Source: Escherichia phage tonijn. Taken from it: DNA of 51,627 nt. The notes beneath the pieces are model-generated. The model had not been told where the DNA came from and did no database searches. It worked only from the letters and a program-made list of their open reading frames with translations. The position numbers and the translations under genes were made by a program. Position 1 is the first letter of the stretch, and every line of letters begins with the position of its first letter. Of this stretch, positions 1 to 51,627 are shown piece after piece. The stretch lies in sequence record NC_049818.1; one strand, 5' to 3'.

Positions 1-562
1 AACGACAGTTAACGAGGAAGACGGGTATTCCGACTACAAGGAAGGAGACGCCATCAACATTTTGACAAGAGGTGTTGTATGGTGTGTAACTCAAACAATT
101 GAATCTCCCCCTGAGCATGGGGATCTTGTTTATGTTAACAATGATGGTTTTGTAGCAAAGAGTGATGGCGATGAAATCGTCGATGGCTGGATTTTTACTG
201 GTGACTTCTACAAGTTTGATGAAACAATAAACATAGTCGGAGTCAGAATAACGCCGCTTTATCATAGAAAATATCTTCTCACTGGTGCGATCATTGAGGC
301 TGAAAATGGATACATAGAGGGAACAGAGACGATCAATAACGTTCAATTAAAGGTAACAGTTGTTCCGACTTGGGCTGATGACAAAACGGGTCAGTGGACA
401 ATTACAAATCCACAAGATCCAAGTGTTGCCAGTGTTAGCCGCACAGGTCTTGTTGTTCCTACTGGTGTAGGAGGCAGAGTTAACGTCAACTGGACTGCTA
501 ATGATGGTTCTGGAGTTGCTGACCAGTTTGATATTGTATTTACGAAAACCGCTGGCGAATAA
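1..562 (+). CDS. Structural (capsid decoration-like) protein with C-terminal Ig-like domain; 3' part of a gene that starts at 51407 across the window junction
   Basis: Frame is open from nt 2 to stop TAA 560-562; the last 2 nt of the window (ac) plus nt 1 complete a codon in the same frame as the ORF starting at ATG 51407; C-terminal 80 aa are Thr/Val/Gly-rich beta-strand pattern typical of Big_2-type Ig folds; paralogous to 50847..51356. Confidence 0.5.
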   Translation, partial: TTVNEEDGYSDYKEGDAINILTRGVVWCVTQTIESPPEHGDLVYVNNDGFVAKSDGDEIVDGWIFTGDFYKFDETINIVGVRITPLYHRKYLLTGAIIEAENGYIEGTETINNVQLKVTVVPTWADDKTGQWTITNPQDPSVASVSRTGLVVPTGVGGRVNVNWTANDGSGVADQFDIVFTKTAGE

Positions 563-582
563 CTAATAGCATAAAAAAACAT

Positions 583-640
583 TGCACGTTTAACAAAAAG
601 TGCTATCATCTAGGCCGTTACATTTAACGGCCTTTTTTAT
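583..640 (+). promoter_or_regulatory. Capsid gene upstream region: TTGCAC-N16-TGcTATCAT (the 20-bp element in reverse orientation supplies a TGn extended -10), then hairpin plus T-tract
   Basis: Element 589-606 read as TTTAACAAAAAGTGCTAT; hairpin ggccgttacatttaacggcc 613-632, T6 633-638; RBS GGAGG 641-645. Confidence 0.4.
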
Positions 641-652
641 GGAGGAAGCAAA

Positions 653-1624
653 ATGGCTAAAAAATATGATGAACTAGATGCTACGATTGTGGCGAATCAT
701 TTGCAGATTCAGGGTGTTAAGTCCGACGCTTCTGATATGGGTATTTGGACCGCTCAAGAGCTACACAAGATCCGCTCTACCGCATACGAGAAAGAGTATC
801 CGGCAGGTTCCGCGCTTCGCGTATTCCCTGTAACAAACGAGCTTTCTGATACTGACAAGACTTTCGAATATCAGACTTTTGATAAGGTTGGCTACGCGAA
901 AATTATCGCCGACTACACCGATGATCTGCCGACTGTGGACGCGTTGATGACTTCTGAGTTTGGCAAAGTGTTCCGCCTGGGTAACGCTTATCTGATCTCC
1001 ATTGATGAGATTAAAGCAGGTCAGCGAACTGGCAAGAGCCTGTCAACTCGCAAGGCTAACGCTGCGCAAAATGCACATGATCAGTTGATTAACTTCCTGG
1101 TGTTCAAAGGTTCCAAGCCTCACAAGATCGTTTCCGTTTTCGATCATCCTAACCTTACGAAAATTGTTTCTAAAGGCTGGATGAGCCAGGACGGCAATAC
1201 CAAGTTCCCGGAAGTGGCAAGCGATGAACTGGAGGCCGCAATCGAAACGATCGAGGAAGTAACCAAAGGTCAGCACCGCGCGACCAACATCCTGATCCCG
1301 CCGTCCATGCGTAAAGTCCTAACGGTTCGAATGGAAAATACCACTGAAAGTTATCTGGAATACTTCCAGAAGCAAAACGGCGGTATCACTATCGACTCTA
1401 TCGCAGAGCTTGAGGATATTGACGGCAAAGGTACGAAAGGTTGCTTGGTTTACGAAAAAGATCCAATGAACATGAGCATTGAGATTCCAGAAGCGTTTAA
1501 CATGCTTCCGGCGCAGCCAAAAGACCTGCATTTCAAAGTTCCTTGCACTTCCAAGTGTACTGGCCTTACGATTTATCGTCCGTTTACGATGGTGCTTATT
1601 ACTGGCTTGAAAAAGTCAGCTTAA
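653..1624 (+). CDS. Major capsid protein
   Basis: 323-aa ORF with GGAGG RBS (641-645), first large gene after the head morphogenesis genes and before head-tail joining genes; followed by hairpin plus T-tract terminator. Confidence 0.7.
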   Translation: MAKKYDELDATIVANHLQIQGVKSDASDMGIWTAQELHKIRSTAYEKEYPAGSALRVFPVTNELSDTDKTFEYQTFDKVGYAKIIADYTDDLPTVDALMTSEFGKVFRLGNAYLISIDEIKAGQRTGKSLSTRKANAAQNAHDQLINFLVFKGSKPHKIVSVFDHPNLTKIVSKGWMSQDGNTKFPEVASDELEAAIETIEEVTKGQHRATNILIPPSMRKVLTVRMENTTESYLEYFQKQNGGITIDSIAELEDIDGKGTKGCLVYEKDPMNMSIEIPEAFNMLPAQPKDLHFKVPCTSKCTGLTIYRPFTMVLITGLKKSA

Positions 1625-10245: not shown

Positions 10246-10293
10246 TGCATTTATAATGTGCAAACCAAGAAACAGCACAAAAGGTTAAAAGTC

Positions 10294-15065: not shown

Positions 15066-15097
15066 CTTCAATACTCCTTAGTTGTTGTTGGCTGTAA

Positions 15098-15140
15098 CTA
15101 TACACGATCCGGCAAGCCGAGTTTAGCAAAAAGTGCTACT
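15098..15140 (-). promoter_or_regulatory. Conserved 20-bp element plus TATAGT -10, oriented to drive the lipoprotein cassette
   Basis: The - strand reads TAGCACTTTTTGCTAAAC, 18 nt, then TATAGT, then AAGGAG RBS. Confidence 0.45.
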
Positions 15141-15508: not shown

Positions 15509-15536
15509 TTGACTAAATCAACCAAATGGCTACAAT
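15509..15536 (+). promoter_or_regulatory. Sigma70-type promoter (TTGACT-N16-TACAAT) for the recombination operon
   Basis: TTGACT 15509-15514, TACAAT 15531-15536, RBS GAGGAG 15553-15558, ATG 15567. Confidence 0.6.
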
Positions 15537-15566
15537 GCACACACAAAGCAACGAGGAGCATTAAAG

Positions 15567-16622
15567 ATGAGTGATTTTAACGCCTATACTAGCGAAGAAA
15601 TGAGCAATGAGCTTTATCATGATCCTAACGCGTGGACGGCTGAATACGTCAGCGGTTCCAGCCTGGCGGAGATTTACAGCACTTGCCCTGCGTACTGGAA
15701 GTACAAGCCTCGCCAGGAAACCAAAGCACTTGTTTTCGGTACGCAGTCGCATACCAATTTTGAAAGCAAGGAGTTATTCGAAAAAACATATCGCCGCGCA
15801 CCGTCGCAGGATGATTTTAAAGATCTGATCACAAGTCAAACGGCGTTGGCCTCAAAGCTGAAATCTTTTGGCCTGAAAGGTACAACGGGTAAGCAATACC
15901 CTGAATTGCTGGAAATGCTGTACAAGTGCGGTGAGGATCTCAATGTGTGGTGGCTTATCGAAATGATGGCAGAATGCCAGGCCGCAGCGGACGGCGTGCA
16001 GCTAATCGACGCGAAAGATTATGATGCCTGTGTAGCGATGCGGCGCGTACTTGAGGCAATACCTGAGCATAATGCTTGCATGAATAGCCCAACCGCGCAG
16101 CGTGAAATGTCAATATTCGGGATCATCAATGGCGTAAAAGTTAAAGTGCGCCTTGATCACGTTGACGTAAACAAGGATGTAAAGGCCACAATCATTAACG
16201 GTTACGACGAAAAAGGCCGACCGATTTATGAAGAAGTCATCTATCCAGAAGCTGTGATTATCACTGACTATAAAACAACGGTTAGCGCAAATCCGGTTGA
16301 CTTCCAGCGCCTGGCTTACAATCACGGCTATTATCTCAAAATGGCTTTGCAGCATGATTTATTTAAAAAGGCGTATCCAGACGAGGAAAGGCCAGTAATT
16401 GTGAGATTGCTTGCTCAAGAGAAGAAAGAGCCTTACTTGCCGCTCGCATTCCGCATGAACATTGAGCAATTGAAGATTGGGCGTATCCAGTACATGAGCG
16501 TGATCAATAAGTTCAATGTTTGCCAGAAGTTAGATGAATGGCCTTCGTATGCAAACGGACAACCAGAAATTGATCTGGATACTCCTGATTGGGTGCGCGC
16601 TCAATTCAGGCAGTATCTATAA
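15567..16622 (+). CDS. PD-(D/E)XK-type recombination exonuclease (putative)
   Basis: 351 aa; VIITDYKTT motif consistent with a D-x-K nuclease core; first gene of the exonuclease-Erf-SSB module. Confidence 0.5.
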   Translation: MSDFNAYTSEEMSNELYHDPNAWTAEYVSGSSLAEIYSTCPAYWKYKPRQETKALVFGTQSHTNFESKELFEKTYRRAPSQDDFKDLITSQTALASKLKSFGLKGTTGKQYPELLEMLYKCGEDLNVWWLIEMMAECQAAADGVQLIDAKDYDACVAMRRVLEAIPEHNACMNSPTAQREMSIFGIINGVKVKVRLDHVDVNKDVKATIINGYDEKGRPIYEEVIYPEAVIITDYKTTVSANPVDFQRLAYNHGYYLKMALQHDLFKKAYPDEERPVIVRLLAQEKKEPYLPLAFRMNIEQLKIGRIQYMSVINKFNVCQKLDEWPSYANGQPEIDLDTPDWVRAQFRQYL

Positions 16623-16697
16623 CAAACCAAACAAATAGCTAAACTTTTATAATGGTTGGTGATATAATTCGCCAACCAGATAGCGGGAGAATTAGAA

Positions 16698-16955
16698 ATG
16701 ACAGATAAAGACAATGCCACATTATTGCATTTAGAACGATTCATTGATCGAGTAACCATTGCAATGAAAGAATTTATTAAGCCGATGAACATTAAAGAGT
16801 CGGAAGAAATGAAGACTTACATCAAGGACGTGGTTGCATCCATTGACAACGTTATCCTTGTTGCAACGATGAGCAAGGGAAACAAAGAGCGCGAGAGGTT
16901 GGTTGCTGAATCAACAGAAGAATTTATTAAAATGCTTGAAAGCGAGAAGGAATAA
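16698..16955 (+). CDS. Hypothetical protein
   Basis: 85-aa ORF with GGGAG RBS. Confidence 0.45.
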   Translation: MTDKDNATLLHLERFIDRVTIAMKEFIKPMNIKESEEMKTYIKDVVASIDNVILVATMSKGNKERERLVAESTEEFIKMLESEKE

Positions 16956-17612
<657 letters not shown>

Positions 17613-17617
17613 TAAAC

Positions 17618-17640
17618 GGGGCGCTTGCGCCCCTTTTGTC
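17618..17640 (+). terminator. Rho-independent terminator
   Basis: Hairpin ggggcgcttgcgcccc followed by TTTTG. Confidence 0.55.
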
Positions 17641-17655
17641 ATAGGAGAAAACAAA

Positions 17656-18108
17656 ATGCACGTTATTACAGGTGAGATTCGAAAAGAGCCAAAAGTAAAG
17701 CAAATGCCTAACGGCAGCACGCTATATGTTGTTGAGCTTTCCGAGCGATACAAAGACCGAGAGGGAAATTGGCAGTATACAAACTATGTGTTTTTCTTTA
17801 ACGCGAAAACAGACGGCCTGAATGGTTGGTATGCTGAGGCTTTCCAGGTAGGAAAGGTTATTTCTGTTTCCTGCGATACCTTGCGAGTTGAAACGCGAGA
17901 ATACAACGGAAAGATTTACAGCACCGTGCAGCCTGGCGGATTTGCAAACCTGCTATTTAGCCAGCGCGGAGAAAGCCAGCAACAATATCAGCAGCGAACG
18001 CAAGGAGGCTGGGGGCAACCACAACAGCAACAGCAACAAAACGCTCAACAGCAGCCGCAGCAAAGCAATCAGCCTCCGATTGACTTTGACGATGATATAC
18101 CATTCTAA
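17656..18108 (+). CDS. Single-stranded DNA-binding protein
   Basis: ATG 17656 after AGGAG; OB-fold-like N-terminus, Gln-rich linker, acidic C-terminal tail DFDDDIPF. Confidence 0.8.
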   Translation: MHVITGEIRKEPKVKQMPNGSTLYVVELSERYKDREGNWQYTNYVFFFNAKTDGLNGWYAEAFQVGKVISVSCDTLRVETREYNGKIYSTVQPGGFANLLFSQRGESQQQYQQRTQGGWGQPQQQQQQNAQQQPQQSNQPPIDFDDDIPF

Positions 18109-18111
18109 TAA

Positions 18112-18143
18112 CAAAAAGCCCCGCATATGCGGGGCATTTTTTT
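18112..18143. terminator. Bidirectional terminator between convergent SSB and tail fiber genes
   Basis: Hairpin gccccgcatatgcggggc (18118-18135) flanked by A- and T-tracts. Confidence 0.65.
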
Positions 18144-20883
18144 AGTTAAGAGTGGTAGGATTGTTGATTAGCTTTGACAGTAAATCTTTTAATTCTGCAA
18201 CCTCCTTTTCAAGTTTGCTTATGCGATCGTCACTTTCACGGCATACTTTCACAAGCAATCCAGTAACAGCGCCATAATCAACAGATAAGAATCTTTCCTC
18301 TCCAACTAACTGATTTCCATCCTTAGTTGGACCAGCAAGATCCGTGTACTGAGTGAATCCGCTAACCGCTTCCGGTATTGCCTCCATTACTTCTTGAGCA
18401 ATTACCCCAGCATAAGGTAAACCATTCTCCTTAAGCGTGTAAGTGTATCCGCTCATTTTGCGCAATGATTCAGTTGCGTTCTCAATCTCTTCAATGTTGT
18501 CCTTCAAGTCACGGTCTGACACCTGATTAAACGCCGTAGCTTGAGCAGCACCATTAACATTAAGAACGCGAGATCCATCTTTGTTTTGCTGAGCATAAAA
18601 AAGATAACCATTATCAAGTTTTGCCTCAATAACAGATGGTCTTCCTGTCGTATTTCCCCAAAGTGAAATTGTTGCATGTTGTGCCGATGTAGCCGAGTTT
18701 TCAAACCTGAATAATCTTCCGTTTGATCTTCTTACAACTGAAGCCGTGCCATCAACAAAAAATCCTCCACCTTTATTTTGCGTTACCGCGGTAATATCTC
18801 CAGCAACAACAACAGAGCTTCCACGCATATCATTATTGAAAACAACATCTGTACTATTGCCGGTTTTCCCTATGTAAAAAAGCCTTTTCCTTGTTGCATC
18901 TTCGCATGAATAATACAATGCCTGAGTTGTTCCGCTTGCAGATCCTCTAATTATATATCCGTTGTTTGCAGTTTCTACCACACTCCTTGATTTTGCAATA
19001 ATTGGTATTGATGAGTAAAAACCAGAATCATGAGAAAACCTTAAGATCTCGCTTGCTTTTGTGCTTTCAGCAACAGGATCACTAGCACCCCACTTGAAAA
19101 CAACGTCGGAAAATTTGAAATCAGCAGTTGGAACTATAACCTCGCATCTTTGAGCAACTCTAACTTTTACAGGAAACGCTCTCTTTTCTATATAGAATGC
19201 AGTATATCCGCCTTCATCACTAGTTCCAGACATCAAAACAGAATGAATTGATTTTTCGTTAGGATCATATTGCGAGAATGCGCCATATACGCATTGTTTT
19301 CTGTCGCTTGCACCAGATGATCTAATGTAACCAGTGAAAGTACATGAGTTCATTGGATCTGCGGCAAGTCCGCTTCTTGTCTGTATTGCAATCTCCGATC
19401 CAAGATACCGCAAATCATCTGTTGGCATTTTTATGATTATTGGATAATACTTCCCGTCAACAGCGCCTGACGGGGCATCAACAATAACCATATTTTCAAA
19501 TCCTGAGTATGGGATCTCAAGGTTTTCCCTTACTTCCTGTACTGTTGTCCCTCCAGTACCACCTTGACCAACTGCTAATGGTTGCCATTTGGACGTGTTT
19601 CTATTGTATACGCCCCACACACCCTTTTCAGCGTCCCTTACTTCAAAATAAGTCTGCCCACCTCCAGAGTAAAGACGCGTAACATCACCGCCTGCAATTT
19701 GATCTAATCTATCAATACCAAGATTGACCTTAGTTGTTTTCACATCTGTTACTGAAATTGCATTTCCTATTAAACTACCGTTAACGCTGAAATTCCCGTC
19801 AATATCAAGTCCAGCATACTTATTTATTGAGCTATCAGCATTTGACAAATGAAGCGTTAGCCATTCTTTGTTGTCTCCTCGTATTTCACCATAAACTCTA
19901 TAGCCAAGCCTTTTTTGCCCTGACGTATTATTAAGGTATCCTGTCAGAATGCCAGCGGCAGCTTGTTGAGCGTCATTATTACGAACAAGGTTAAGATTTT
20001 GAAATTGTGGACTGTTTCCATCTCCAAGACCTATTCTTGTTCTGTATGTGTTTGTTGACTCCTGAGCATAAAAAGCAAACCATGCTGACCATACTTGTCT
20101 TGTTGGATCGTACCATCTCGAATAAAAGTAACCCTGAGAATTGTAAGGCCTGTAAATTTGATGGCAGGCATCGTTACCGTTAGCCCTGTTTGAGATAACT
20201 TGCAAAGATCCGGCCAATTTTGCTGGATACCCCCTTTCAGGAGTAGCGAAAGCACTAGTACCTTGAAAGTAAAGACCAGCTTGCTCACCCTTAAGATTAT
20301 CTATGTTTGTCTCATCAAGATTAACCCATGATTGATAGTATGCGCTTAAATTCTTTCGTGAGACACCCTTATCAGCAAGATCATTAAGATTTTGAGACTT
20401 AACAAGAAAATTACCAGGTTGAATGCTTTCTGCATACTGCTTAGCTTTATCTTCGCTTGTTTTTGCAGCTTCCGCGCTTTGCTTTGCTGATTCAGCACCC
20501 TGTTTAACCTGATCTACAAGCTGTTTCAGGCTATCAATATCAAAATCTTTGAAAAACTCTATTGCTTCCTCAATAACAGTCTCTTTGCTTTGATAGTAAC
20601 GAAGTGTTTCCGCTACGTCCTGCGCCAACCCGTCAACCGTTAACGAGTCATGCAGCAAGATCAGGTAATTTGTCTTCTGGACTACCGCGCCGCCAGTAGT
20701 AATTGCGCGAATGCTTGTATCGCTAATCACTTCTGTGATCACGGCAGCCTGCAAAGGTTGAGTAAGAAAGAAAATAGTTGCACCTGGGCGAATCAAGGTT
20801 AATTGCTCACGCCATTTTGTGTCGTAACCAGTTACATAACCTTGCGCGTCCATAGACGCTTGGCCTTGTCTGTAAATTGCCAT
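18142..20883 (-). CDS. Tail fiber protein with C-terminal intramolecular chaperone (peptidase S74-like) domain
   Basis: ATG at 20881-20883 (complement) after AGGAGG; 913 aa; C-terminal [12 protein letters not shown] ... LEKEVAELK is the characteristic auto-cleaving chaperone motif of phage fibers. Confidence 0.7.
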
Positions 20884-20947
20884 TTGTAAAATCCTCCTAA
20901 ATAGCACTTTTTGCTAATGACAATGCAGATAATAGCATTTTCAAATG

Positions 20948-22461: not shown

Positions 22462-22510
22462 ATAGCATTTTTTGTTAAAACAGTTTATTGTAATGAGTCT
22501 ATTATATACT
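22462..22510 (+). promoter_or_regulatory. Conserved 20-bp element plus TATATA/TATACT, upstream of the helicase gene
   Basis: ATAGCATTTTTTGTTAAAAC at 22462-22481; -10-like hexamers at 22503-22510; ATG 22538. Confidence 0.45.
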
Positions 22511-24535: not shown

Positions 24536-24954
24536 TGGCTATAACTGATAAAGGCGATTATCTTGAGTTTTACGAAAGAGATCCAACCGACACTAGAAAG
24601 GAAGTTAATCACCAGATAGATAGTTTTCAGTGGTTGACTTATGCTCATCCTTATTTGCTGGCGTGGCATACGGTAAACGAGAATGAGAAGTCTAAAGCAA
24701 CGGCGATGATTGATCAGCAGTCCGGCTTGGTTAAGGGAGTAAGCGATTTCATCATCCTGATTGGCTTAAACGGAAAATACCCCTTTGCGGCGATTGAGAT
24801 CAAACGAGTGAATAAATCAGGCAAGGGGAAAGCATCACCAGTCAGCGATGAACAAAAGGCTTTTTTGCGTCGCGTTCGCAGCTTAGGAGGATTCGCTGCG
24901 GTAGCCTACGGATTCAATCAGTTTAAGTTGGCTATTGAATACATGCTTAAATAG
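24535..24954 (+). CDS. VRR-NUC-type nuclease (putative)
   Basis: 139 aa; GVSDFIILI ... AIEIKR pattern consistent with a PD-(D/E)XK VRR-NUC core. Confidence 0.45.
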   Translation: MAITDKGDYLEFYERDPTDTRKEVNHQIDSFQWLTYAHPYLLAWHTVNENEKSKATAMIDQQSGLVKGVSDFIILIGLNGKYPFAAIEIKRVNKSGKGKASPVSDEQKAFLRRVRSLGGFAAVAYGFNQFKLAIEYMLK

Positions 24955-24995
24955 CACTTTTTGTTAAAACTGGCGCGATGGATTGCGCCATAATT
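24949..24995 (+). promoter_or_regulatory. Conserved 20-bp element, GC dyad and ATAAT; stop codon of the upstream gene embedded
   Basis: AAATAGCACTTTTTGTTAAAAC 24949-24970, dyad ggcgcgatggattgcgcc, then cATAATt. Confidence 0.5.
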
Positions 24996-25764: not shown

Positions 25765-26022
25765 ATGAAAAAAGAGAGAAGCGTTTATTTAAATGAAACT
25801 GGCGAATGGTTGTTATTTCGCGCTATGGTGTGCGATGCACTTGATAAAAATCCTAACGTGAAAAAGATGATTGATTGCGATCCGTGGGAATTTTCAAGCG
25901 CATTAGATATGAGCTTTGAGGAGACAAGAAAACTCCCGCTTGAAAAATGGCACGAACAAATCAGAAATGACATGCAAGAGTTTGTTGATTCGTGGAATTT
26001 TCAGCACGGAATGATCCACTAA
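25765..26022 (+). CDS. Hypothetical protein
   Basis: 85-aa ORF; stop embedded in the 20-bp element. Confidence 0.45.
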   Translation: MKKERSVYLNETGEWLLFRAMVCDALDKNPNVKKMIDCDPWEFSSALDMSFEETRKLPLEKWHEQIRNDMQEFVDSWNFQHGMIH

Positions 26023-26066
26023 TAGCACTTTTTGTTAAAACGCCCGGCCTAGTGTCGGGCATAATT
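26021..26066 (+). promoter_or_regulatory. Conserved 20-bp element plus hairpin plus ATAATT; left arm of an inverted pair with 29240..29283
   Basis: AATAGCACTTTTTGTTAAAACgcccggcctagtgtcgggcATAATT. Confidence 0.5.
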
Positions 26067-29239: not shown

Positions 29240-29283
29240 AATATACCCGACACTAGGCCGGGCGTTTTAACAAAAAATGCTAT
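29240..29283 (-). promoter_or_regulatory. Conserved 20-bp element plus hairpin; right arm of the inverted pair with 26021..26066
   Basis: The - strand reads AATAGCATTTTTTGTTAAAACgcccggcctagtgtcgggtATATTT. Confidence 0.5.
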
Positions 29284-31392: not shown

Positions 31393-31444
31393 GGGCCGTA
31401 AATTTTAACGGCCCAATACTACCCCGTTTTGTCAAAAAGTGCTA
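31393..31444 (-). promoter_or_regulatory. Conserved 20-bp element (variant) plus hairpin upstream of the P-loop NTPase gene
   Basis: The - strand reads ATAGCACTTTTTGACAAAAC then the hairpin gggccgttaaaatttacggccc then RBS. Confidence 0.45.
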
Positions 31445-31663
31445 TTTGATCCGCTCTATTGCAACCAGAAGTCGATCAGGCTGGCGGTCGCTGTAGCATT
31501 CTCCTGTAATCCCATCCTTAAACGTAAAGTAAAGCGCCTTATGATATGAAAAACCAATCAGCCAACCTACCGCCGTTTTTTTGATGGGCCTGACTATATC
31601 GCCAGGCTTGAAAGTCTTTGTGGTAGAATTCGTTACTTTGTAACGGTTTTCACTGTTTATCAC
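31442..31663 (-). CDS. Hypothetical protein
   Basis: 73-aa ORF; stop lies within the element. Confidence 0.45.
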   Translation of the reverse strand: MINSENRYKVTNSTTKTFKPGDIVRPIKKTAVGWLIGFSYHKALYFTFKDGITGECYSDRQPDRLLVAIERIK

Positions 31664-32074: not shown

Positions 32075-32119
32075 GATTATGCCAGGTTTTTACACCTGGC
32101 TTTTAACAAAAAGTGCTAT
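32075..32119 (-). promoter_or_regulatory. Conserved 20-bp element, hairpin and ATAATC
   Basis: The - strand reads ATAGCACTTTTTGTTAAAAgccaggtgtaaaaacctggcATAATC. Confidence 0.5.
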
Positions 32120-34274: not shown

Positions 34275-34318
34275 AATATACCATTCAGGCGCACATCGTT
34301 TTTAACAAAAAGTGCTAT
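34275..34318 (-). promoter_or_regulatory. Conserved 20-bp element plus TATATT
   Basis: The - strand reads ATAGCACTTTTTGTTAAAAA, 19 nt, then TATATT, then a conserved leader ACATACATCGACAACAAACGAGGA. Confidence 0.5.
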
Positions 34319-34780: not shown

Positions 34781-34826
34781 AATGTACAGGAATGCGAGGA
34801 TTGAGTTTTAACAAAAAGTGCTATTT
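34781..34826 (-). promoter_or_regulatory. Conserved 20-bp element plus TACATT
   Basis: The - strand reads AAATAGCACTTTTTGTTAAAAC, 18 nt, then TACATT, then a conserved leader. Confidence 0.5.
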
Positions 34827-35088
34827 AGTCCAGGAATTCGATTTCACGCTCTCCAGTTAACGGATCCACAAGCCAGAATCCGAGCGGTTCGCCGTGCATA
34901 CCGCCATAGAATCCAAGCGCCGTCAGATCTTCACCTTTAACAAATACCAGGTTTCCGCTACGGCTTACGTGAGAAACGTTAACGATAACCGGAAATGTGC
35001 GATCCTTAAATGCGGGCCGCAGGGCGTAACATCCGTTATTGAGCAAACGTGCTTTGCGCTTAACTGGAATAGGTGCATTAATTTTCAT
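34825..35088 (-). CDS. Hypothetical protein
   Basis: 87-aa ORF with GGAG RBS. Confidence 0.45.
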   Translation of the reverse strand: MKINAPIPVKRKARLLNNGCYALRPAFKDRTFPVIVNVSHVSRSGNLVFVKGEDLTALGFYGGMHGEPLGFWLVDPLTGEREIEFLD

Positions 35089-36050: not shown

Positions 36051-36084
36051 TGCTATCTCCTGAGCGGTTCGTTTTGATGTGTGT

Positions 36085-36130
36085 AATGTACCCGATCAGG
36101 TGGCCTGAGTTTTAACAAAAAGTGCTATTT
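36085..36130 (-). promoter_or_regulatory. Conserved 20-bp element plus TACATT, driving the leftward block
   Basis: The - strand reads AAATAGCACTTTTTGTTAAAAC, 18 nt, then TACATT. Confidence 0.5.
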
Positions 36131-36159
36131 GACGGTTAGCGCCAGGATTGTGATCGAAA

Positions 36160-36247
36160 TAATCAAAAGTAATCATTCGTAATCAAATCACGTCAAAATG
36201 ATGATTGCCTTTGCAAATTTGATGAGAAAAGTAATCACGATTAATCA
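36160..36247 (+). repeat. Five direct repeats of (G/T)TAATCA with 10-bp phasing; candidate operator/iteron array
   Basis: Copies at 36160, 36169, 36179 (about 10 bp apart) and 36231, 36241. Confidence 0.5.
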
Positions 36248-36683
36248 TTGGTTGCAGGGGAGATAGTGAAACCTTCCCCTCTTGCCTCACTTTTTTGCCT
36301 GGCTGTCAGTGGCTGTTGTCTTTTGTTCACCCCTGTTACCGATTTCAGGCGGCGTGTTTCCGCGCGGTTTTCCGGTGTAGCGAAAACGAAAAAAACAAAA
36401 AAAATCCTATATAATACATTGAAAATAAAGATTATTTATTTATATATATCTATAATGTTTTCTTTTTGTTCTCACTGTTACAGTGCTTTTTGTTGGTTAT
36501 GGTGTGGTTGTGTGTGGGCATATATGGATAGTTGCGCGCGCGGCGGATTGCATATGTATATATACTTTTTCCGGCGGATTGCGTTAACAGCGTGAACAGA
36601 AAAATAACAGCCGCGAAATCAATAACTTGCGCATGATTTTGTAGTTTTTCGATATTGGTAACGTTTTGAATACAACAAAAACA

Positions 36684-36711
36684 TTGACACGCACCAAATA
36701 GCTTTTATAAT
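36684..36711 (+). promoter_or_regulatory. Consensus sigma70 promoter TTGACA-N16-TATAAT for the rightward early block
   Basis: TTGACA 36684-36689 and TATAAT 36706-36711; the track ORF start at 36710 lies inside the -10 and is rejected. Confidence 0.7.
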
Positions 36712-37207: not shown

Positions 37208-37476
37208 AAAAGGCATTAATCAGCGTTTTGGCGGCAATGGCATTCCTGACCGGATGCAAAGAAGATGGCGCGCATGTTGGCAATGTGCAGATGGCTAACC
37301 CTGGCGATGACTACAGCGTAAGGGAGCTATTCACCGCCGATGGTTGCACTGTTTACCGATTCTATGACGGTCGCACTGTTTACTTCACCAACTGCAAGGG
37401 AACGACTAGCTGGGAAGTGTCGAAAAGCAACGGCAAAGGCACGAAAACAGAATACATGACCGTTGAGACAAAATAG
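37204..37476 (+). CDS. Lipoprotein
   Basis: Signal peptide plus lipobox (MKKALISVLAAMAFLTGCKE). Confidence 0.55.
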   Translation: MKKALISVLAAMAFLTGCKEDGAHVGNVQMANPGDDYSVRELFTADGCTVYRFYDGRTVYFTNCKGTTSWEVSKSNGKGTKTEYMTVETK

Positions 37477-37517
37477 CACTTTTTGTTAAAACGCCAGGCG
37501 CAAAGCCTGGCATAATA
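37471..37517 (+). promoter_or_regulatory. Conserved 20-bp element, hairpin and ATAAT
   Basis: AAATAGCACTTTTTGTTAAAACgccaggcgcaaagcctggcATAATA; stop TAG of the lipoprotein gene is embedded. Confidence 0.5.
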
Positions 37518-37935: not shown

Positions 37936-37979
37936 ATAGCACTTTTTGTTAAAACTCAAAAACGATAACCAAGCATAAT
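37934..37979 (+). promoter_or_regulatory. Conserved 20-bp element plus ATAATA (no dyad)
   Basis: AAATAGCACTTTTTGTTAAAAC 37934-37955; cATAATa 37974-37979. Confidence 0.45.
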
Positions 37980-38033: not shown

Positions 38034-38927
38034 ATGTTAAAACTTGCTGACATTAAATTCCCGATCACCTTCGAATCTCGCGGCATTGGTCATTACATTT
38101 TTACCGATGAAAAAACATGCCATAAGGTTGATATGAATAGCGACAAACTAAGCCCATCAACAATGGAGATTGAACACTTTATTGATGCACACAATACGCA
38201 CTACAACGCCCTTAAAGACTACGGCTACGCAATGCCAGGCTACACATGTTTGCACTACAAGCCATATAAGGGCCAGGTGTTGCCAGTGCGCTCACCGGAA
38301 CGCGCGGAGATTCCGATGGTCCACATGAAAACCTGCGACTACAAAAAGCTGTGGTGCTTAAGTGTGGACAATATCAAGTATCCGATCACGTTCCACACGA
38401 CTGGTAAGTCAACGATTCGCTACACATCGCGCGACAATGGCGTTTATAGCGATGGTACGAAATCAGAGTTGAAAGTTGATTTCTTTGTCAACGGTCACAA
38501 CAAATTCAATCCGCACAACGAAGAGGATAAAGTGTACTACGTGGAAGACATTACAAAACACTTGTTTGGAGAAACTCCATTCGGCGGCGGAAAGACGTCA
38601 ATTCAAAAAATCATTGGCGAGGAGATCCACAAAGCGGCTGTCGAAATGAAAGCGCCTGGAGGCTGGCGTATTGACAAGAGCGCCTTTGCAAATCAAGAAA
38701 TCGTAACGCAGGGCGCGATTGAAGATATGCCAGTTGCAGCCACGCTAAAAGGAGTCCGGCTTGATGACGGCAGTTGGTATGAATTAACGGCTACACCAAA
38801 GACGATCGAAATTCATGATGATGTTGTTATCCTTCTGCTTCACTACGGCGGCACTAAAAACCGGACTGTTGCGGGTGAGATCAGCATCAAGCGCGGAACG
38901 ATGGTTAAGTGGAAGGTGAAGATTTGA
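38034..38927 (+). CDS. Hypothetical protein with internal duplication
   Basis: 297 aa; duplicated segment IKFPITFESRG / IKYPITFHTTG. Confidence 0.5.
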   Translation: MLKLADIKFPITFESRGIGHYIFTDEKTCHKVDMNSDKLSPSTMEIEHFIDAHNTHYNALKDYGYAMPGYTCLHYKPYKGQVLPVRSPERAEIPMVHMKTCDYKKLWCLSVDNIKYPITFHTTGKSTIRYTSRDNGVYSDGTKSELKVDFFVNGHNKFNPHNEEDKVYYVEDITKHLFGETPFGGGKTSIQKIIGEEIHKAAVEMKAPGGWRIDKSAFANQEIVTQGAIEDMPVAATLKGVRLDDGSWYELTATPKTIEIHDDVVILLLHYGGTKNRTVAGEISIKRGTMVKWKVKI

Positions 38928-39003: not shown

Positions 39004-39156
39004 ATGGCTACCTGGATTTTGCTGATTCTTATGATTGATGGCGGCGTTGACCATATCGAAATGAATAGCCAGCAATCTTGCATTGAGGCACGAGAGCAGA
39101 TCAAGAACAACAACAGGTTTCATGCGTACACTCACACGCTATGTATTAAGAAATAG
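39004..39156 (+). CDS. Small hypothetical protein (50 aa), below the ORF-track cutoff
   Basis: ATG 39004 after GAGGTGAG; stop TAG 39154-39156 embedded in the element. Confidence 0.4.
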   Translation: MATWILLILMIDGGVDHIEMNSQQSCIEAREQIKNNNRFHAYTHTLCIKK

Positions 39157-39195
39157 CATTTTTTGTTAAAACTCAAATGTGGGGCCAAGTATAAT
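39151..39195 (+). promoter_or_regulatory. Conserved 20-bp element plus TATAAT
   Basis: AAATAGCATTTTTTGTTAAAAC 39151-39172; TATAAT 39190-39195; RBS AAGGAG 39212-39217. Confidence 0.5.
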
Positions 39196-39857: not shown

Positions 39858-40567
39858 TGAAAATTTATACATTTGAACTGTGGGGCAAGAAGTACGAATT
39901 TACGACAAGCAAGCCTATTGTTGTGTGCGATCTCGACGGCACACTATCGGACGGATCGCATCGTTTGCATTTGCTGCCAACTGAAAACTTGCACCTTACG
40001 GAATCGTGGCGCGAGTTTAACAGGGCCGCCGCCGGAGATTCACCGATTAAAAGCACGATCGCGGTTATTAACGGTTTATGGGTGTCGGGATTTGCCATCG
40101 TCATCTTGACCGGACGCAGCGACGAGGTTCGCTATGAAACCTGCAAATGGTTGAATGAGAACGGCGTGAAGTTTGACGAAATCATCATGCGCCGCCAGGA
40201 GGACAACCGAAAGGATACGGTTATTAAAGAAGAAGCCTTGCGCGCTATTGGCCTGGACAACATTGTTTGCGCCTTTGACGATTCGCCTAACGTGGTTAAG
40301 CACTTCCGCAGCTTGGGGATCACAACCTATCAGGTCACGGAATACGACAAGCCACACGCTCACATACAATCTCACGGCGTGGAATCAATCAAGATCACGA
40401 AGCGCGCCCGATTCGTCGGCAGCAAAGATAGCCTTGTCAATGCCAGCTTTATCAAAGGCAAGGTTTATGATGTTCATAGCCATGATAAAAACCGATTCTT
40501 TTTGTGGGATGAAAAAGGTTTTGGCTGGTGCTTTGAACACGACGACGGCGATTTTGTTAATGCGTAA
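39851..40567 (+). CDS. HAD-superfamily phosphatase (nucleotidase or polynucleotide 3'-phosphatase-like)
   Basis: Motif I VVCDLDGTLSD, motif II ILTGRS, later FDDS. Confidence 0.6.
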   Translation: MVMKIYTFELWGKKYEFTTSKPIVVCDLDGTLSDGSHRLHLLPTENLHLTESWREFNRAAAGDSPIKSTIAVINGLWVSGFAIVILTGRSDEVRYETCKWLNENGVKFDEIIMRRQEDNRKDTVIKEEALRAIGLDNIVCAFDDSPNVVKHFRSLGITTYQVTEYDKPHAHIQSHGVESIKITKRARFVGSKDSLVNASFIKGKVYDVHSHDKNRFFLWDEKGFGWCFEHDDGDFVNA

Positions 40568-40610
40568 TAGCACTTTTTGTTAAAACATCTCAACGGGCTT
40601 GCGGTATAGT
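40565..40610 (+). promoter_or_regulatory. Conserved 20-bp element, dyad and TATAGT
   Basis: TAATAGCACTTTTTGTTAAAAC 40565-40586; TATAGT 40605-40610 inside the dyad gggcttgcggtatagtaagccc. Confidence 0.5.
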
Positions 40611-43081: not shown

Positions 43082-43372
43082 ATGGCAAACAAAACTTACC
43101 GCAAACTACTGGTTAACGCTTTTGAAAACATTGCGCAGTGTAACAAGTGGAACGACTCTAAACACTCGCCAGTCACAATGAAGCGCGCCGGATTCAAAAA
43201 TGCTCGTTCATGGGCGCGAGCTTTCGCAGCTTGCTATATGCCGGATGGTGGTCTAGGAACGATGAACGATTTTTTGATCAACATGATAGAGGAAGCGGCG
43301 CGAGAGGATCGACCGCTGACACAGCGAGATTTTGACGACTTCGCGCGCGATGAGCTTTACTATCTGAGCTAA
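43082..43372 (+). CDS. Hypothetical protein
   Basis: 96-aa ORF; stop embedded in the element. Confidence 0.5.
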   Translation: MANKTYRKLLVNAFENIAQCNKWNDSKHSPVTMKRAGFKNARSWARAFAACYMPDGGLGTMNDFLINMIEEAAREDRPLTQRDFDDFARDELYYLS

Positions 43373-43421
43373 TAGCACTTTTTGTTAAAACTTCCGCAAG
43401 GGCATTTGATAAAGTGCCCTT
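43370..43421 (+). promoter_or_regulatory. Conserved 20-bp element plus hairpin
   Basis: TAATAGCACTTTTTGTTAAAAC 43370-43391; hairpin aagggcatttgataaagtgccctt. Confidence 0.45.
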
Positions 43422-45497: not shown

Positions 45498-46025
45498 ATG
45501 GCTAAAAACGTTGAGCCTGCTGTAAAGGCATTAAATTTCAAAGAGTTATACAATAAAACTTATGGCGATATTGTTACGCTAAACAACCGCCACAAGTACA
45601 CGCCGGAACAGGTTTTTGATATGGCGATCCGCTATTTCACTTGGGCCGAAGAGAATCACATCCAGGCGGCTGAAACTGCTTCCTTTCAGGGTGACGTGTA
45701 CGAGAGCAGAGTTTACAAGCCTCGCGTTTTCACGGTTAACGGATTCAGCTTGTATCTCGGCGTGACTGAGGCAGCCGTAAGCAAATGGCGTAAAGAGCCT
45801 GGATTCTGCGATGTGATGGAGTTTGTTGATAAAGTAATTTACGAGCAAAAATTCCAGCTTGCGGCAAATAACATGATTAACGCTGGATTTATCGGTAAAG
45901 AGATCGGAGTAGAGAAGCCAGCAACAGTGAGCGTTGAAGCGAGCGCGGCAGCTAATGCAAGCATTGACGCAGTAACTGCCGATGAGGTGAAAGAGGCTGT
46001 GATTGATATTCTGGAGCAACTTTAA
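45498..46025 (+). CDS. Terminase small subunit
   Basis: ATG 45498 after AAAAGGAGG; 175 aa immediately upstream of the large terminase gene. Confidence 0.55.
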   Translation: MAKNVEPAVKALNFKELYNKTYGDIVTLNNRHKYTPEQVFDMAIRYFTWAEENHIQAAETASFQGDVYESRVYKPRVFTVNGFSLYLGVTEAAVSKWRKEPGFCDVMEFVDKVIYEQKFQLAANNMINAGFIGKEIGVEKPATVSVEASAAANASIDAVTADEVKEAVIDILEQL

Positions 46026-47593
46026 TGATCATATGGGAAGATTTGACGGCGGCGCAAAAGCGAGCCATTAAAGAAATCAGTGAGCATTCATTCGAAAAGA
46101 TGATCAGGATCTGGTTCCAACTATTACAGGGGCAAAAATTCCAGAGCAACTGGCATTTTAGCTTATTGTGCAGTGAGGTAGAGAAGATCATCAATGGAGA
46201 GTCGCAGAATGTGATTTTCAACATTACGCCAGGTAGCGGCAAGACTGAGATTTTCTCGATCCACATGTCACCCTACGCGTCATTGAAAAGCCGGAAAGTG
46301 AGAAACCTTAACCTTTCGTTTAGTGATGGCCTTGTCCAGCAAAACAGCAACCGGATAAAGGAGATTATCGGTTCTCCTGAGTGGCAAGAGCTATGGCCTG
46401 GAAAACTGGCAAAGGCGAGCGCTAAAGATCTGATAGTCACCGAAGGCGGCAAGGTTAAATTGCAAGTTAACTCACGTTCTATTGGCGGCCAGGTAACAGG
46501 TTTGCGTGGCGGCTATATGGACGATGGTTTTACTGGTATGCTGGTTCTTGACGATCCAGACAAGCCGGATGATATGCTTTCTAAGGTCAAGCGCGAGGCT
46601 ATTCACATGCGGTTAAAAAACACAGTGCGATCGCGTCGAATGAAAGACACCACGCCAATTGTTATGGTGCAACAGCGACTACACGTTAATGATTCCACCT
46701 GGTTCATGCTTAATGGCGGGATGGGTGGTATTGAGTTTAAAGTCGTGAGCATTCCGGCGCTGGTTACGAAAGAATACCGCGAAACGCTTCCTGATTGGTT
46801 GAAGCCTGAATTTGATCGTGATGTGCTGTCAAGTAAGCCAGTGATGATAGATGGCGTCGCTCATTATTCATTTTGGCCTGCGAAGGAAAGCGCGGAGGAG
46901 TTGCTTGCATTGCGCAATGCAGATCCTTACACGTTCGCCAGCCAATACCAACAGCAACCAATCGCGCTTGGCGGGAACGTGTTTAAAACAGAGTGGTTCC
47001 AGTATTACGGCAGCGGCGAAAAGTGCGCACTACCAAAACCGGATCGCTTTGAATACACATTTATTACTGGAGATACCGCGCAGAAGGCCGGAGAGCTTAA
47101 CGACTATTCGGTTTTTTGTTATTGGGGGATGTATAAGAATCGCGTTTACTTCATTGATGGCATTCGCGGAAAGTGGGAAGCGCCGGATCTTGAATTAAAT
47201 TTTATTGCCTTCGTTAACCAGTGCTGGAAGCGCAATAAGGAGTGTGGCAGCTTGCGACGTATCCACATTGAGGATAAGGCCAGCGGCACGGGTTTGATTC
47301 AGGGGGCCAAAAAGAAGATCCCGATTGATATAAATCCCGTTCAGCGAAGCAATGACAAGGTGACGCGAGCAATGGACGCCGCGCCAGTAATGAGGGCCGG
47401 ACGTGTGGCGCTGCCAGAAAATCACCCCATGCTGCCTGAGATACTGGCAGAGGTTGCAGCATTCACTTTTGATGATTCTCATCCCCATGATGATATTGTC
47501 GATAATATAGTTGATGCTGTTAACGTCGAAATGAACTTGGCAGATGATCCGGTGGCAAGGATGAAAAAGCTGGCTGGTCTACGCAATAAATAG
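46025..47593 (+). CDS. Terminase large subunit
   Basis: Walker A ITPGSGKTE and Walker B MLVLDDPD; 522 aa; followed by portal gene. Confidence 0.8.
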   Translation: MIIWEDLTAAQKRAIKEISEHSFEKMIRIWFQLLQGQKFQSNWHFSLLCSEVEKIINGESQNVIFNITPGSGKTEIFSIHMSPYASLKSRKVRNLNLSFSDGLVQQNSNRIKEIIGSPEWQELWPGKLAKASAKDLIVTEGGKVKLQVNSRSIGGQVTGLRGGYMDDGFTGMLVLDDPDKPDDMLSKVKREAIHMRLKNTVRSRRMKDTTPIVMVQQRLHVNDSTWFMLNGGMGGIEFKVVSIPALVTKEYRETLPDWLKPEFDRDVLSSKPVMIDGVAHYSFWPAKESAEELLALRNADPYTFASQYQQQPIALGGNVFKTEWFQYYGSGEKCALPKPDRFEYTFITGDTAQKAGELNDYSVFCYWGMYKNRVYFIDGIRGKWEAPDLELNFIAFVNQCWKRNKECGSLRRIHIEDKASGTGLIQGAKKKIPIDINPVQRSNDKVTRAMDAAPVMRAGRVALPENHPMLPEILAEVAAFTFDDSHPHDDIVDNIVDAVNVEMNLADDPVARMKKLAGLRNK

Positions 47594-47647
47594 CACTAAT
47601 TGCTAAAAAGTTATATAATCAAGGCTGGATTTTTCCAGCCTTTTTTA
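47588..47647 (+). promoter_or_regulatory. Variant element (ATAGCACTAATTGCTAAAAAG), TATATAAT and terminator-like hairpin
   Basis: TATAAT 47615-47620; hairpin aggctggatttttccagcct 47622-47641 followed by T6. Confidence 0.45.
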
Positions 47648-50846: not shown

Positions 50847-51356
50847 ATGGCTAAAATTGGAGCAAGTTATTTTGACACTATGGCGCGCGCGCTTCCTGGT
50901 CAGGTATCCGACACGTCGGCATATAACATCGACGGCGCTTGCGTTCTTGACAAGGATGATGGAATCGCTATCCCCGTTGGCGTGGCGGTAAAATTAAAAG
51001 GCGTAGATTCTATGGGTAACAAACTTATCGACGCCATCACTTCAAGCGCTGACGTTCCTTATGGTGTTGCTATTCGATCGCACTTCCAGACAACCGGAGA
51101 AAACGGTCGTATGGTTTATGAAGTTGGTGGAGGCATCAACGTCATGACTGAGGGTAGAGTTTGGATGGTCGTAGATGATTCCGATAAGGCAAAAACTCCA
51201 CAATATCGCGAGCCTGTGAAAATTGATGATTCCACAGGATTTGTTAAAAGTTCTGGAGCAATTACAACGAACTGGATCTTTACTGGCGATAAAACAACTT
51301 ACGGTTCTGGTCAGGATGTGTTGACTTTGTTTGAAGTTCAGGTCTTCCCAAGCTAA
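50847..51356 (+). CDS. Structural (capsid decoration-like) protein, paralog of the junction-spanning gene
   Basis: 169 aa; shares YNIDG, GVA(I/L)RS and W(I)FTGD motifs with the 51407..562 product; terminator 51364-51390 follows. Confidence 0.45.
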   Translation: MAKIGASYFDTMARALPGQVSDTSAYNIDGACVLDKDDGIAIPVGVAVKLKGVDSMGNKLIDAITSSADVPYGVAIRSHFQTTGENGRMVYEVGGGINVMTEGRVWMVVDDSDKAKTPQYREPVKIDDSTGFVKSSGAITTNWIFTGDKTTYGSGQDVLTLFEVQVFPS

Positions 51357-51406
51357 AATCAAGGCGCTCGCTTGAGCGCCTTTTTTATTATGTAAGGAGA
51401 AATGAA

Positions 51407-51627
51407 ATGGCTAAAGATTATTCATCTGTTATGGGTCTTTCTTGCCCTGGTTGTTTGGTTGATTCTACTCGCTACAATATTGATGGTACTGGCGTTTGTG
51501 GTTCTGAATCGATCATTGCTGGTAAGGTTGTTTTCTTTAAGGAGAGAATCGGCGGTTACAACATATTTGTTGACCACAAAGAGGAGGACGCTGTGGTTGC
51601 GGGTGTTGCGCTAAGGAGCAACATAAC
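51407..51627 (+). CDS. 5' part of the structural protein gene that continues at 1..562 (runs off the window end)
   Basis: ATG 51407 eight nt after AAGGAG; no stop before the window end; frame continuity with nt 2 onwards. Confidence 0.45.
   Translation, partial: MAKDYSSVMGLSCPGCLVDSTRYNIDGTGVCGSESIIAGKVVFFKERIGGYNIFVDHKEEDAVVAGVALRSNI

What the first reader, a model, noticed from the sequence alone, without database searches (positions are those of the whole stretch)
51407..51627. ORF runs off the 3' end of the window and is frame-continuous with the ORF at the 5' end (circular or permuted genome)
The ORF starting at ATG 51407 has no stop before the window end. The last two nucleotides plus nt 1 form a codon that leads directly into the frame of track ORF 62..562 (open from nt 2). 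The joined product is about 260 aa with an Ig-like C-terminus. Gene order also wraps: packaging and head morphogenesis genes at the end, capsid at the start. The window therefore seems to be an entire genome opened inside a gene.
Basis: seen in the sequence. Interest (0 to 1): 0.45.

Follow-up and report, generated by a model that had tools for sequence, protein, structure and literature searches.

The report
Complete phage genome cut inside a gene
The window is a whole T1-like coliphage genome whose database record was opened at an arbitrary point inside a capsid "cement" protein gene, so the gene looks split across the two ends; this is an ordinary result of assembling a headful-packaging phage.

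Summary
ATG 51407 opens a frame with no stop up to base 51627. The last two bases plus base 1 form codon 74 (ACA), and the frame runs on to TAA 560-562, giving 783 nt / 260 aa.

The joined 260-aa protein exists, residue for residue, as one uninterrupted gene on at least 22 independent public contigs. A 4-kb and a 20.8-kb artificial junction align in one piece to relatives. The exact 200-nt junction occurs in three independent assemblies. Against phage FritzSarasin the window ends map to adjacent bases 6130|6131, and the two genomes are collinear circular permutations.

The window is a unit-length Warwickvirus genome (Drexlerviridae), most likely Escherichia phage tonijn (51,627 bp, 44.6% GC). 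Its public "gp01" (166 aa) is the truncated C-terminal remnant of this gene.

The gene is the homologue of T1 gp48. It has an N-terminal Phage_cement (beta-tulip) domain and a C-terminal Ig-like Big_2 domain, and sits between the gp49-like short cement paralogue and the major capsid gene.

"Circular" describes the map, not the virion DNA. T1-like phages package by pac/headful, which gives linear, terminally redundant, permuted DNA. Nothing here is new, so interest is low. The practical value is a correction to the annotation.

The parts
51407..51627 (+). 5' part of the split gene: codons 1-73 plus the first two bases of codon 74 of the Ig-bearing capsid cement protein (T1 gp48 homologue)
   Evidence: open frame; the FritzSarasin CDS bas04_0007 starts at the equivalent ATG. 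Phage_cement PF22758 spans aa 4-147, so the cut lies in the middle of this domain.
1..562 (+). 3' part of the same gene: third base of codon 74, codons 75-260 and stop TAA 560-562. It contains the rest of the cement domain, a linker and the Big_2 Ig-like domain (aa 186-246).
   Evidence: T1 gp48 (PDB 9KZJ chain H) aligns to aa 10-245, E 3e-15; public protein P0008 (tonijn gp01, 166 aa) equals window ORF 62..562.
51394..51399 (+). Shine-Dalgarno sequence AAGGAG of the split gene, 7 nt before the ATG
   Evidence: Read directly from the sequence.
51361..51389 (+). Terminator-like hairpin (9 bp stem, -16 kcal/mol) with a T-run, between the short cement gene and the split gene
   Evidence: The same element is found in FritzSarasin. 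The T1 record annotates a rho-independent terminator at the equivalent place between genes 49 and 48.
50847..51356 (+). Upstream paralogue: short (169 aa) cement protein, homologue of T1 gp49
   Evidence: Phage_cement, 1.1e-26; 47% identity to T1 gp49 and 35% to the N-terminal domain of the split gene.
582..639 (+). Intergenic control region before the capsid gene: TTGCAC-16 nt-TATCAT (with TG upstream of the second hexamer), which includes one copy of the repeated 18-mer (589-606), followed by a hairpin at 612-633 and a T-run
   Evidence: T1 has the same arrangement (TTGACG-16-TATTAT plus hairpin) between genes 48 and 47.
653..1624 (+). Major capsid protein gene, directly downstream of the split gene
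   Evidence: PF09950, 1.5e-53; 77% identity to T1 gp47.
45498..47593 (+). Terminase small (P22 gp3-like) and large subunit genes. Curated relatives start their records here.
   Evidence: PF16677 GP3_package, Terminase_6C. FritzSarasin base 1 equals window 45498. TerL is 65% and TerS 54% identical to T1.
36051..36709 (.). Divergent intergenic region between the leftward and rightward early gene blocks. It corresponds roughly to the place where the T1 record starts and where T1's terminal-redundancy region is annotated. Inferred, not shown, to be the pac-proximal region.
   Evidence: T1 repeat_region 1-2800 begins in the equivalent divergent gap; the T1 ST70 homologue lies at 38034-38927. No sequence similarity to T1 exists in the gap itself.

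Best explanation
The window is one complete unit length of a T1-like siphophage genome (Drexlerviridae, Tempevirinae, Warwickvirus), most probably the record of Escherichia phage tonijn.

Shown:
- The two window ends are adjacent in the real genome, with no base missing or extra.
- The cut falls in codon 74 of a 260-aa gene.
- That gene is the homologue of T1 gp48. It has an N-terminal cement (beta-tulip family) domain and a C-terminal Ig-like domain.
- It lies after a short paralogue (gp49-like) and before the major capsid gene.

Inferred from established knowledge of T1-like phages:
- The phage replicates into concatemers.
- Its terminase (P22-gp3-like small subunit; large subunit 65% identical to T1's) starts at a pac site and packages headfuls slightly longer than one genome.
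- Virion DNAs are therefore linear, terminally redundant and permuted.
- Shotgun reads close into a circle, and the depositor's assembler broke that circle at an arbitrary base.
- A gene caller then rescued only the 3' part from an internal TTG (the public 166-aa 'gp01').

Inferred from the T1 cryo-EM structure:
- One copy of the 260-aa protein joins two copies of the 169-aa paralogue in heterotrimers at quasi-threefold positions of the T=7 head.
- Homotrimers of the short paralogue fill the other threefold sites.
- The Ig-like domain projects outward.
For: - Frame continuity.
- Intact homologues: (180 records with at least 80% coverage in one place; Poky and MikeNSara 99.2%).
- The exact joined sequence is public and was read on 22 contigs, mid-contig, with the same neighbours.
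- Single-piece alignment across the junction: including the exact 200-nt junction in L007, L009 and L010.
- Adjacent coordinates 6130|6131 and whole-genome rotation against FritzSarasin, 93% covered.
- Both halves are collinear with 48-52 kb relatives.
- Identity with tonijn: P0008, 'H1N82_gp01 Escherichia phage tonijn', 166 aa, sits on a 51,627-bp contig and equals window ORF 62..562. Table 1 of PMC7552041 lists tonijn MN850641 at 51,627 bp and 44.6% GC. The window is 51,627 bp and 44.64% GC.
- Records from that study start at unrelated positions and strands: the gene is at 30103+, 27391-, 16526-, 11543+ and 42903+.
- Protein family: Pfam PF22758 at 78.8 bits (cutoff 27) plus Big_2; T1 gp48/gp49 chains of PDB 9KZJ, E 3e-15 and 5e-15; T1 head description in PMC11945409; synteny with T1 genes 49-48-47.
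- Packaging: TerS in the P22 gp3 family; TerL 65% identical to T1; literature statements that T1-like phages use headful packaging and lack fixed ends; T1 repeat_region 1-2800.
Against: - No reads were available, so neither the circular closure of this particular assembly nor its physical termini were observed directly.
- The tonijn record itself is not in the searchable phage collection, so the identification rests on length, GC content and the gp01 sequence.
- Identity to T1 gp48 is only 29%.
- A single-sequence AlphaFold model was useless (pLDDT 32.7). The fold and the 1:2 heterotrimer are therefore inferred by homology and not tested.
Confidence: 0.95

Rival explanations
1. The window is a fragment of a longer linear molecule, and the matching frames at the two ends are a coincidence or hide missing sequence.
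For: Two independent open frames would match in phase by chance one time in three.
Against: - The ends map to adjacent bases in FritzSarasin.
- One-piece alignments run across the junction in 43 phage records and six assemblies, with the exact 200-nt junction in three.
- The exact joined protein is public.
- The length equals that of complete relatives.
Confidence: 0.01
2. The cut is a true physical genome end (a fixed terminus or a series end inside the gene), so the gene is only completed after circularisation or concatemer formation.
For: Some phages do have termini inside or next to genes, and no read data were available to exclude a terminus here.
Against: - The window ends share no terminal repeat or overlap.
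- Sister records from the same study begin at unrelated places and strands.
- The terminase is of the T1/P22 headful kind.
- T1's redundancy region lies in the divergent early intergenic area, which corresponds to about 36 kb in the window, roughly 15 kb from the cut.
- The literature states that T1-like phages lack fixed ends.
Confidence: 0.03
3. The two pieces are separate genes: a 73-aa N-terminal fragment, and the 166-aa TTG-start ORF annotated in the public record as gp01.
For: The public annotation H1N82_gp01 is 166 aa. An AAGGAG-like stretch lies 13 nt before the TTG at 62.
Against: - The Phage_cement domain spans aa 4-147 and would be cut in half.
- Relatives annotate or encode an uninterrupted 259-260-aa ORF.
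- T1 gp48 aligns across the junction, aa 10-245.
Confidence: 0.01

Closest known systems
Phage T1 gp48, cement protein with a C-terminal Ig-like domain (PDB 9KZJ chain H; PMC11945409)
   Same: - Same length class (255 vs 260 aa).
- Same two-domain layout: N-terminal cement/beta-tulip domain plus C-terminal BIG2/Ig-like domain.
- Same genomic slot between the short cement paralogue and the major capsid gene, with a terminator-like hairpin upstream.
   Different: Only 29% identity over aa 12-244. T1 has a proline-rich linker that is absent here. The heterotrimer stoichiometry was not tested for this phage.
Phage T1 gp49 (158 aa cement protein; PDB 9KMG/9KZJ), compared with the window's 169-aa ORF at 50847-51356
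   Same: 47% identical, same Pfam family and same position. It is the paralogue of the split gene's N-terminal domain, at 35% identity.
   Different: It is not the split gene itself and lacks the Ig-like domain.
Pfam PF22758 Phage_cement (E217 gp24 / Pam3 gp6) and PF23982 (XM1 gp53)
   Same: The N-terminal domain scores well above the gathering cutoff for both families (78.8 and 69.7 bits against 27).
   Different: The profile covers only aa 4-147. The Ig-like extension is an addition.
Lambda gpD-type trimeric decoration proteins
   Same: According to PMC11945409, T1 gp48/gp49 adopt the same beta-tulip fold and bind at threefold and quasi-threefold sites to stabilise the head.
   Different: No sequence similarity was detected here. 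T1's gp49 inserts its N-terminus into the capsid interior, unlike gpD. Heterotrimers and an Ig-like domain are not features of gpD.
pac-type headful packaging genomes (T1, P22): terminally redundant, permuted DNA that assembles as a circle
   Same: The TerS belongs to the P22 gp3 family and the TerL is 65% identical to T1's. There are no terminal repeats in the record. Relatives are deposited in many rotations.
   Different: The pac site and the extent of redundancy were not observed for this phage. T1-like packaging is described as a series from pac, which gives limited rather than full permutation (from my own knowledge of Ramsay and Ritchie 1983, cited in PMC8421802).

Membership tests
Complete, circularly permuted record of a Warwickvirus (Drexlerviridae) genome | The two record ends are adjacent in independent genomes, with no gap or insertion | tested here: met
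   (FritzSarasin 6130|6131). (a single piece across 4 kb). (one HSP across 20.8 kb in six assemblies; exact 200-nt junction in three).
Complete, circularly permuted record of a Warwickvirus (Drexlerviridae) genome | Unit length and full gene complement, collinear with complete relatives after rotation | tested here: met
   51,627 bp against 48-52 kb relatives. Alignment is 93% reciprocal, with one change of offset exactly at the record ends. The unaligned stretches are mosaic modules: tail fibre, tip of the J protein and small early genes.
Complete, circularly permuted record of a Warwickvirus (Drexlerviridae) genome | Reads span the junction with even coverage | not testable with these tools
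   No read data were available.
T1 gp48-like cement protein (Pfam Phage_cement + Big_2) | N-terminal Phage_cement domain above Pfam's gathering score | tested here: met
   78.8 bits against 27, aa 4-147. T1 gp48 E 3e-15 and gp49 E 5e-15.
T1 gp48-like cement protein (Pfam Phage_cement + Big_2) | C-terminal Ig-like (BIG2) domain | tested here: met
   Big_2 at 29.7 bits against 22.8, aa 186-246; the alignment to T1 gp48 extends through residue 245.
T1 gp48-like cement protein (Pfam Phage_cement + Big_2) | Gene order: protease, short cement paralogue, this gene, major capsid protein | tested here: met
T1 gp48-like cement protein (Pfam Phage_cement + Big_2) | Beta-tulip fold of the N-terminal domain | tested here: inconclusive
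   The single-sequence AlphaFold2 model had a mean pLDDT of 32.7, so no fold search was attempted. The fold is inferred only from sequence homology to the solved T1 chains.
T1 gp48-like cement protein (Pfam Phage_cement + Big_2) | Forms 1:2 heterotrimers with the short paralogue at quasi-threefold capsid sites | not testable with these tools
   Known for T1 only (PMC11945409).
pac-type headful packaging | Terminase of the headful lineage (TerS P22 gp3-like; TerL close to T1) | tested here: met
   (PF16677, 4.1e-11). (TerL 65% and TerS 54% identical to T1).
pac-type headful packaging | Terminal redundancy and permutation of virion DNA, with a pac fragment | not testable with these tools
   Needs reads or restriction mapping. 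The literature for T1-like phages supports it, as does the T1 repeat_region 1-2800.

The most novel reading that the evidence does not exclude
The tandem pair 'short cement gene - leaky terminator - Ig-bearing cement gene' may be a built-in device that sets stoichiometry. T1 heads need 360 copies of the short protein and 60 of the long one. The Ig-like domain may also be an optional, tunable display module. Some natural relatives carry an in-frame amber codon exactly at the linker (codon 173) with the Ig frame otherwise intact. They would make the long form only by read-through or in suppressor hosts. None of this depends on the split at the window ends, which is an artefact.
Probability: 0.15. 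Interest if true: 0.3.

Novelty: already known. Interest (0 to 1): 0.07.

Why it matters
The main value is for curation. The public record that matches this window annotates a truncated 166-aa 'gp01' and loses the N-terminal 94 residues of a structural protein, and this truncated form has propagated into RefSeq and UniRef entries.

Rotating the record, for example to start at the small terminase gene (window 45498) as curated relatives do, restores the 260-aa gene. Relatives label the gene 'hypothetical' or 'putative scaffolding protein'. The T1 structure shows it is a capsid cement/decoration protein with an Ig-like domain.

Scans of raw windows should treat frame-continuous terminal ORFs as a signature of a circularly closed assembly, not as a biological feature.

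Tried and rejected
- **Terminal direct repeats or k-mer overlap between the window ends:** none of 5-400 nt and no shared 12-mer within 600 nt. The record carries no assembler overlap or DTR.
- **Structure prediction:** a single-sequence AlphaFold2 model of the joined protein gave pLDDT 32.7 and was unusable. No fold search was run, and I judged the large homologue search needed for a deep alignment not worth its cost for an already clear homology.
- **Fetching the presumed source record:** NC_049818 (my guess at the RefSeq accession for tonijn) is not in the phage collection.
- **Repeat-driven assembly break:** I asked whether the Ig-like domain is repeated elsewhere in the genome, which could explain a break at a repeat. 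There is no nucleotide or protein repeat of the gene elsewhere, so the break point looks arbitrary.
- **Other assemblies cut in the same gene:** I asked whether the shorter cluster members (172-185 aa) are further assemblies cut here. For the 172-aa form they are not; these sit mid-contig and carry an in-frame amber codon.
- **Locating pac by similarity to T1:** the divergent early intergenic region does not align to T1, so only a rough positional inference is possible.
- **Literature search for the repeated 18-mer by its sequence string:** no relevant paper.

Full report
**1. The observation**

The sequence shows AAGGAG at 51394-51399 and ATG at 51407. The frame has no stop to the last base, 51627. 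Bases 51626-51627 (AC) plus base 1 (A) make codon 74 (ACA). The frame continues as window frame 2 and ends at TAA 560-562.

The joined ORF is 783 nt, or 260 aa. It is the only open frame at either end. From base composition, a 260-codon frame without a stop has a probability of about 1.4e-7. ORF 62..562 in the mechanical list is simply the first TTG in the same frame.

- Pfam finds Phage_cement (PF22758, aa 4-147, 5.8e-22) and Big_2 (aa 186-246, 6.4e-7) in the joined protein.
- TerS, TerL, portal, the Mu-F-like protein, DUF2213 protease/scaffold and a 169-aa cement protein occupy 45.5-51.4 kb.
- The major capsid protein is at 653-1624.

**2. Are the ends really adjacent?**

Four independent lines of evidence say yes.

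(a) tblastn of the joined protein against 50,697 phage records gives 180 records in which one place covers at least 80% of it. Identity reaches 99.2% (Poky, MikeNSara), with 98.8% for tonnikala, atuna and FritzSarasin.

(b) The exact 260-aa sequence is in the public protein collection (for example EFW4035433.1); the index counts it on 33 contigs up to 52 kb long. Twenty-two contigs were read. The six shown in detail carry the gene mid-contig with the same neighbours: protease, 169-aa cement gene, this gene, major capsid gene.

(c) At the DNA level, an artificial junction of the last 2000 plus the first 2000 bases aligns as a single piece at 100% coverage and 93-97% identity in 43 records. A 20.8-kb junction aligns as one HSP (97.3-98.5%) to six metagenome/SRA assemblies. 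The exact 200-nt junction (100 + 100 nt) is present in three of them.

(d) Against FritzSarasin (MZ501069, 51,777 bp, curated to start at terS), window 45498-51627 matches 1-6130 and window 1-13094 matches 6131-19227. The window ends therefore correspond to adjacent bases, and FritzSarasin's own ends correspond to window 45495/45498. The two records are rotations of one map, 93% alignable. The unaligned parts are the usual mosaic modules: lateral tail fibre at 18171-20538, the J tip at 13095-13314, and small early genes.

**3. What the window is**

The relatives are Drexlerviridae, Tempevirinae, Warwickvirus.

The protein cluster contains P0008, 'hypothetical protein H1N82_gp01 [Escherichia phage tonijn]'. 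It is 166 aa long and sits on a contig of 51,627 bp, the window's length. Its sequence equals window ORF 62..562 with TTG read as Met.

Table 1 of Olsen et al. 2020 (PMC7552041) lists tonijn as MN850641, 51,627 bp, 44.6% GC, Warwickvirus. The window has 44.64% GC. The window is therefore most likely that record.

That study assembled Illumina reads de novo with CLC/SPAdes. Its sister records start at unrelated positions and on either strand: the same gene lies at 30103+, 27391-, 16526-, 11543+ and 42903+ in tonnikala, atuna, tunus, tiwna and tuinn. This is what arbitrary linearisation of circular assemblies produces.

The window carries no terminal overlap or repeat. The gene is not repeated elsewhere in the genome, so nothing marks the break point as special.

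**4. Why the map is circular (inferred)**

The small terminase belongs to the P22 gp3 family (PF16677). The large terminase is 65% and the small 54% identical to those of T1.

T1-like phages are described as using pac-initiated headful packaging. They lack fixed physical ends, and their DNA is terminally redundant and permuted (PMC13164509; PMC8421802 citing Ramsay and Ritchie 1983). The T1 reference record annotates a repeat_region at 1-2800 that starts in the divergent gap between the two early gene blocks, 8.4 kb upstream of terS.

The corresponding gap in the window is 36051-36709. The T1 ST70 homologue at 38034-38927 anchors the comparison, but the gap itself does not align to T1. The likely pac-proximal region is thus about 15 kb from the record ends.

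This step is inference. Reads or restriction mapping would be needed to show it.

**5. What the split gene encodes**

A PDB sequence search hits T1 chains:
- 9KZJ_H, 'BIG2 domain-containing protein', 255 aa, E 3e-15, aligned over query aa 10-245.
- 9KMG_a, 'cement protein II', 158 aa, E 5e-15.

The T1 cryo-EM paper (PMC11945409) identifies these as gp48 and gp49:
- Both have beta-tulip cement domains.
- The gp48 C-terminus (residues 154-255) is a flexible outward protrusion, modelled as Ig-like and suggested to help adsorption.

In the window, the 169-aa ORF at 50847-51356 is 47% identical to gp49. The joined protein is 29% identical to gp48 and 35% identical to its own upstream paralogue. The order 49-48-47 is conserved.

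The cut at codon 74 lies in the middle of the cement domain, so neither fragment could be functional alone. By homology, the protein works as the Ig-bearing member of heterotrimeric capsid cement.

The fold and stoichiometry were not tested here. A single-sequence AlphaFold model failed (pLDDT 32.7).

**6. Comparison with the known, and novelty**

Both halves of the finding are known. One is a circular assembly of a headful phage deposited with an arbitrary origin. The other is a member of the T1 gp48 / Phage_cement family.

What is wrong is the public annotation:
- a 166-aa truncated 'gp01' for this record;
- 'hypothetical' or 'putative scaffolding protein' labels on relatives.

Interest is therefore low.

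**7. Side observations**

(i) An 18-mer, TTTAACAAAAAGTGCTAT, occurs 19 times in the window (12 exact; 0.21 expected) and 13 times in T1 (0.07 expected), always between genes.
- Read as ATAGCACTTTTTGTTAAA, the 32 sites share a TATAAT-like hexamer 20 nt downstream.
- At about 16 of the 19 window sites, a co-directional gene start follows within roughly 40-80 nt.
- This looks like a family-wide promoter class with a conserved upstream element in place of a -35 hexamer.
- The copy at 589-606, next to the split gene, has the opposite orientation and is conserved in T1. There it forms part of a TTGACG-16-TATTAT element ahead of the capsid gene.
- I found no paper containing the string.

(ii) Some natural relatives carry TAG in place of GAG at codon 173, exactly at the linker before the Ig-like domain. 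The downstream frame is intact.

(iii) Terminator-like hairpins follow the short cement gene, the split gene and the capsid gene. T1 annotates one between genes 49 and 48. This would fit the unequal copy numbers of these proteins.

Noticed in passing
window 589-606, 4343-4360, 15122-15139, 20901-20918, 22462-22479, 24951-24968, 26022-26039, 29266-29283, 31428-31445, 32102-32119, 34301-34318, 34807-34824, 36111-36128, 37473-37490, 37936-37953, 39153-39170, 40567-40584, 43372-43389, 47590-47607; also 13 sites in L004 (T1): The intergenic 18-mer TTTAACAAAAAGTGCTAT is repeated 19 times in the window (12 exact; 0.21 expected) and 13 times in T1 (0.07 expected). Read as ATAGCACTTTTTGTTAAA, it is followed after 20 nt by a TATAAT-like hexamer and then, at most sites, by a co-directional gene start. 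This looks like a Drexlerviridae-wide promoter class with a conserved upstream element and no canonical -35. Three late-region copies are inverted, and two of those are conserved in T1. No paper in the library holds the string.
   Followed up: partly
L011 2017-2019 and L012 903-905 (codon 173 of the homologous gene; equivalent to window 296-298): Contigs from two different samples carry an in-frame amber TAG in place of GAG, exactly at the linker between the cement domain and the Ig-like domain. The downstream Ig-like frame is fully intact. The cause is unresolved: a recent knockout of a dispensable domain, or a form expressed by read-through or suppression.
   Followed up: partly
window 51361-51389, 612-639, 1636-1664: Strong hairpin plus T-run elements follow the short cement gene, the split gene and the major capsid gene. 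T1 annotates a terminator at the same place between genes 49 and 48. Partial termination could help set the unequal copy numbers (T1: 360 gp49, 60 gp48, 415 capsid protein).
   Followed up: partly
window 62-562: The public protein 'H1N82_gp01 [Escherichia phage tonijn]' (YP_009901223.1 / QHR74817.1, 166 aa, also a UniRef entry) is the N-terminally truncated remnant of the 260-aa gene, created by the record's start point. It is an annotation artefact that has propagated into databases.
   Followed up: yes
window 18171-20538 and 13095-13314: These are among the larger stretches with no similarity to FritzSarasin. They fall in the 921-aa minus-strand lateral tail fibre/tailspike ORF (18142-20907) and near the C-terminal end of the 1209-aa J-like tip protein (10243-13872), which are host-range modules typical of mosaic exchange.
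   Followed up: no
L006 20498-20783 and L007 20496-20783: Two close relatives carry an HNH_3 endonuclease gene between the tail assembly protein I gene and the J-like gene. The window has no such gene: there, J follows I directly at 10243.
   Followed up: no
window 34873-35058 (minus strand): Residues 88-147 of T1 ST71 match this stretch at 52% identity, but on the opposite strand and on the other side of the divergent early gap compared with T1. This suggests a rearrangement around the presumed pac-proximal region.
   Followed up: no
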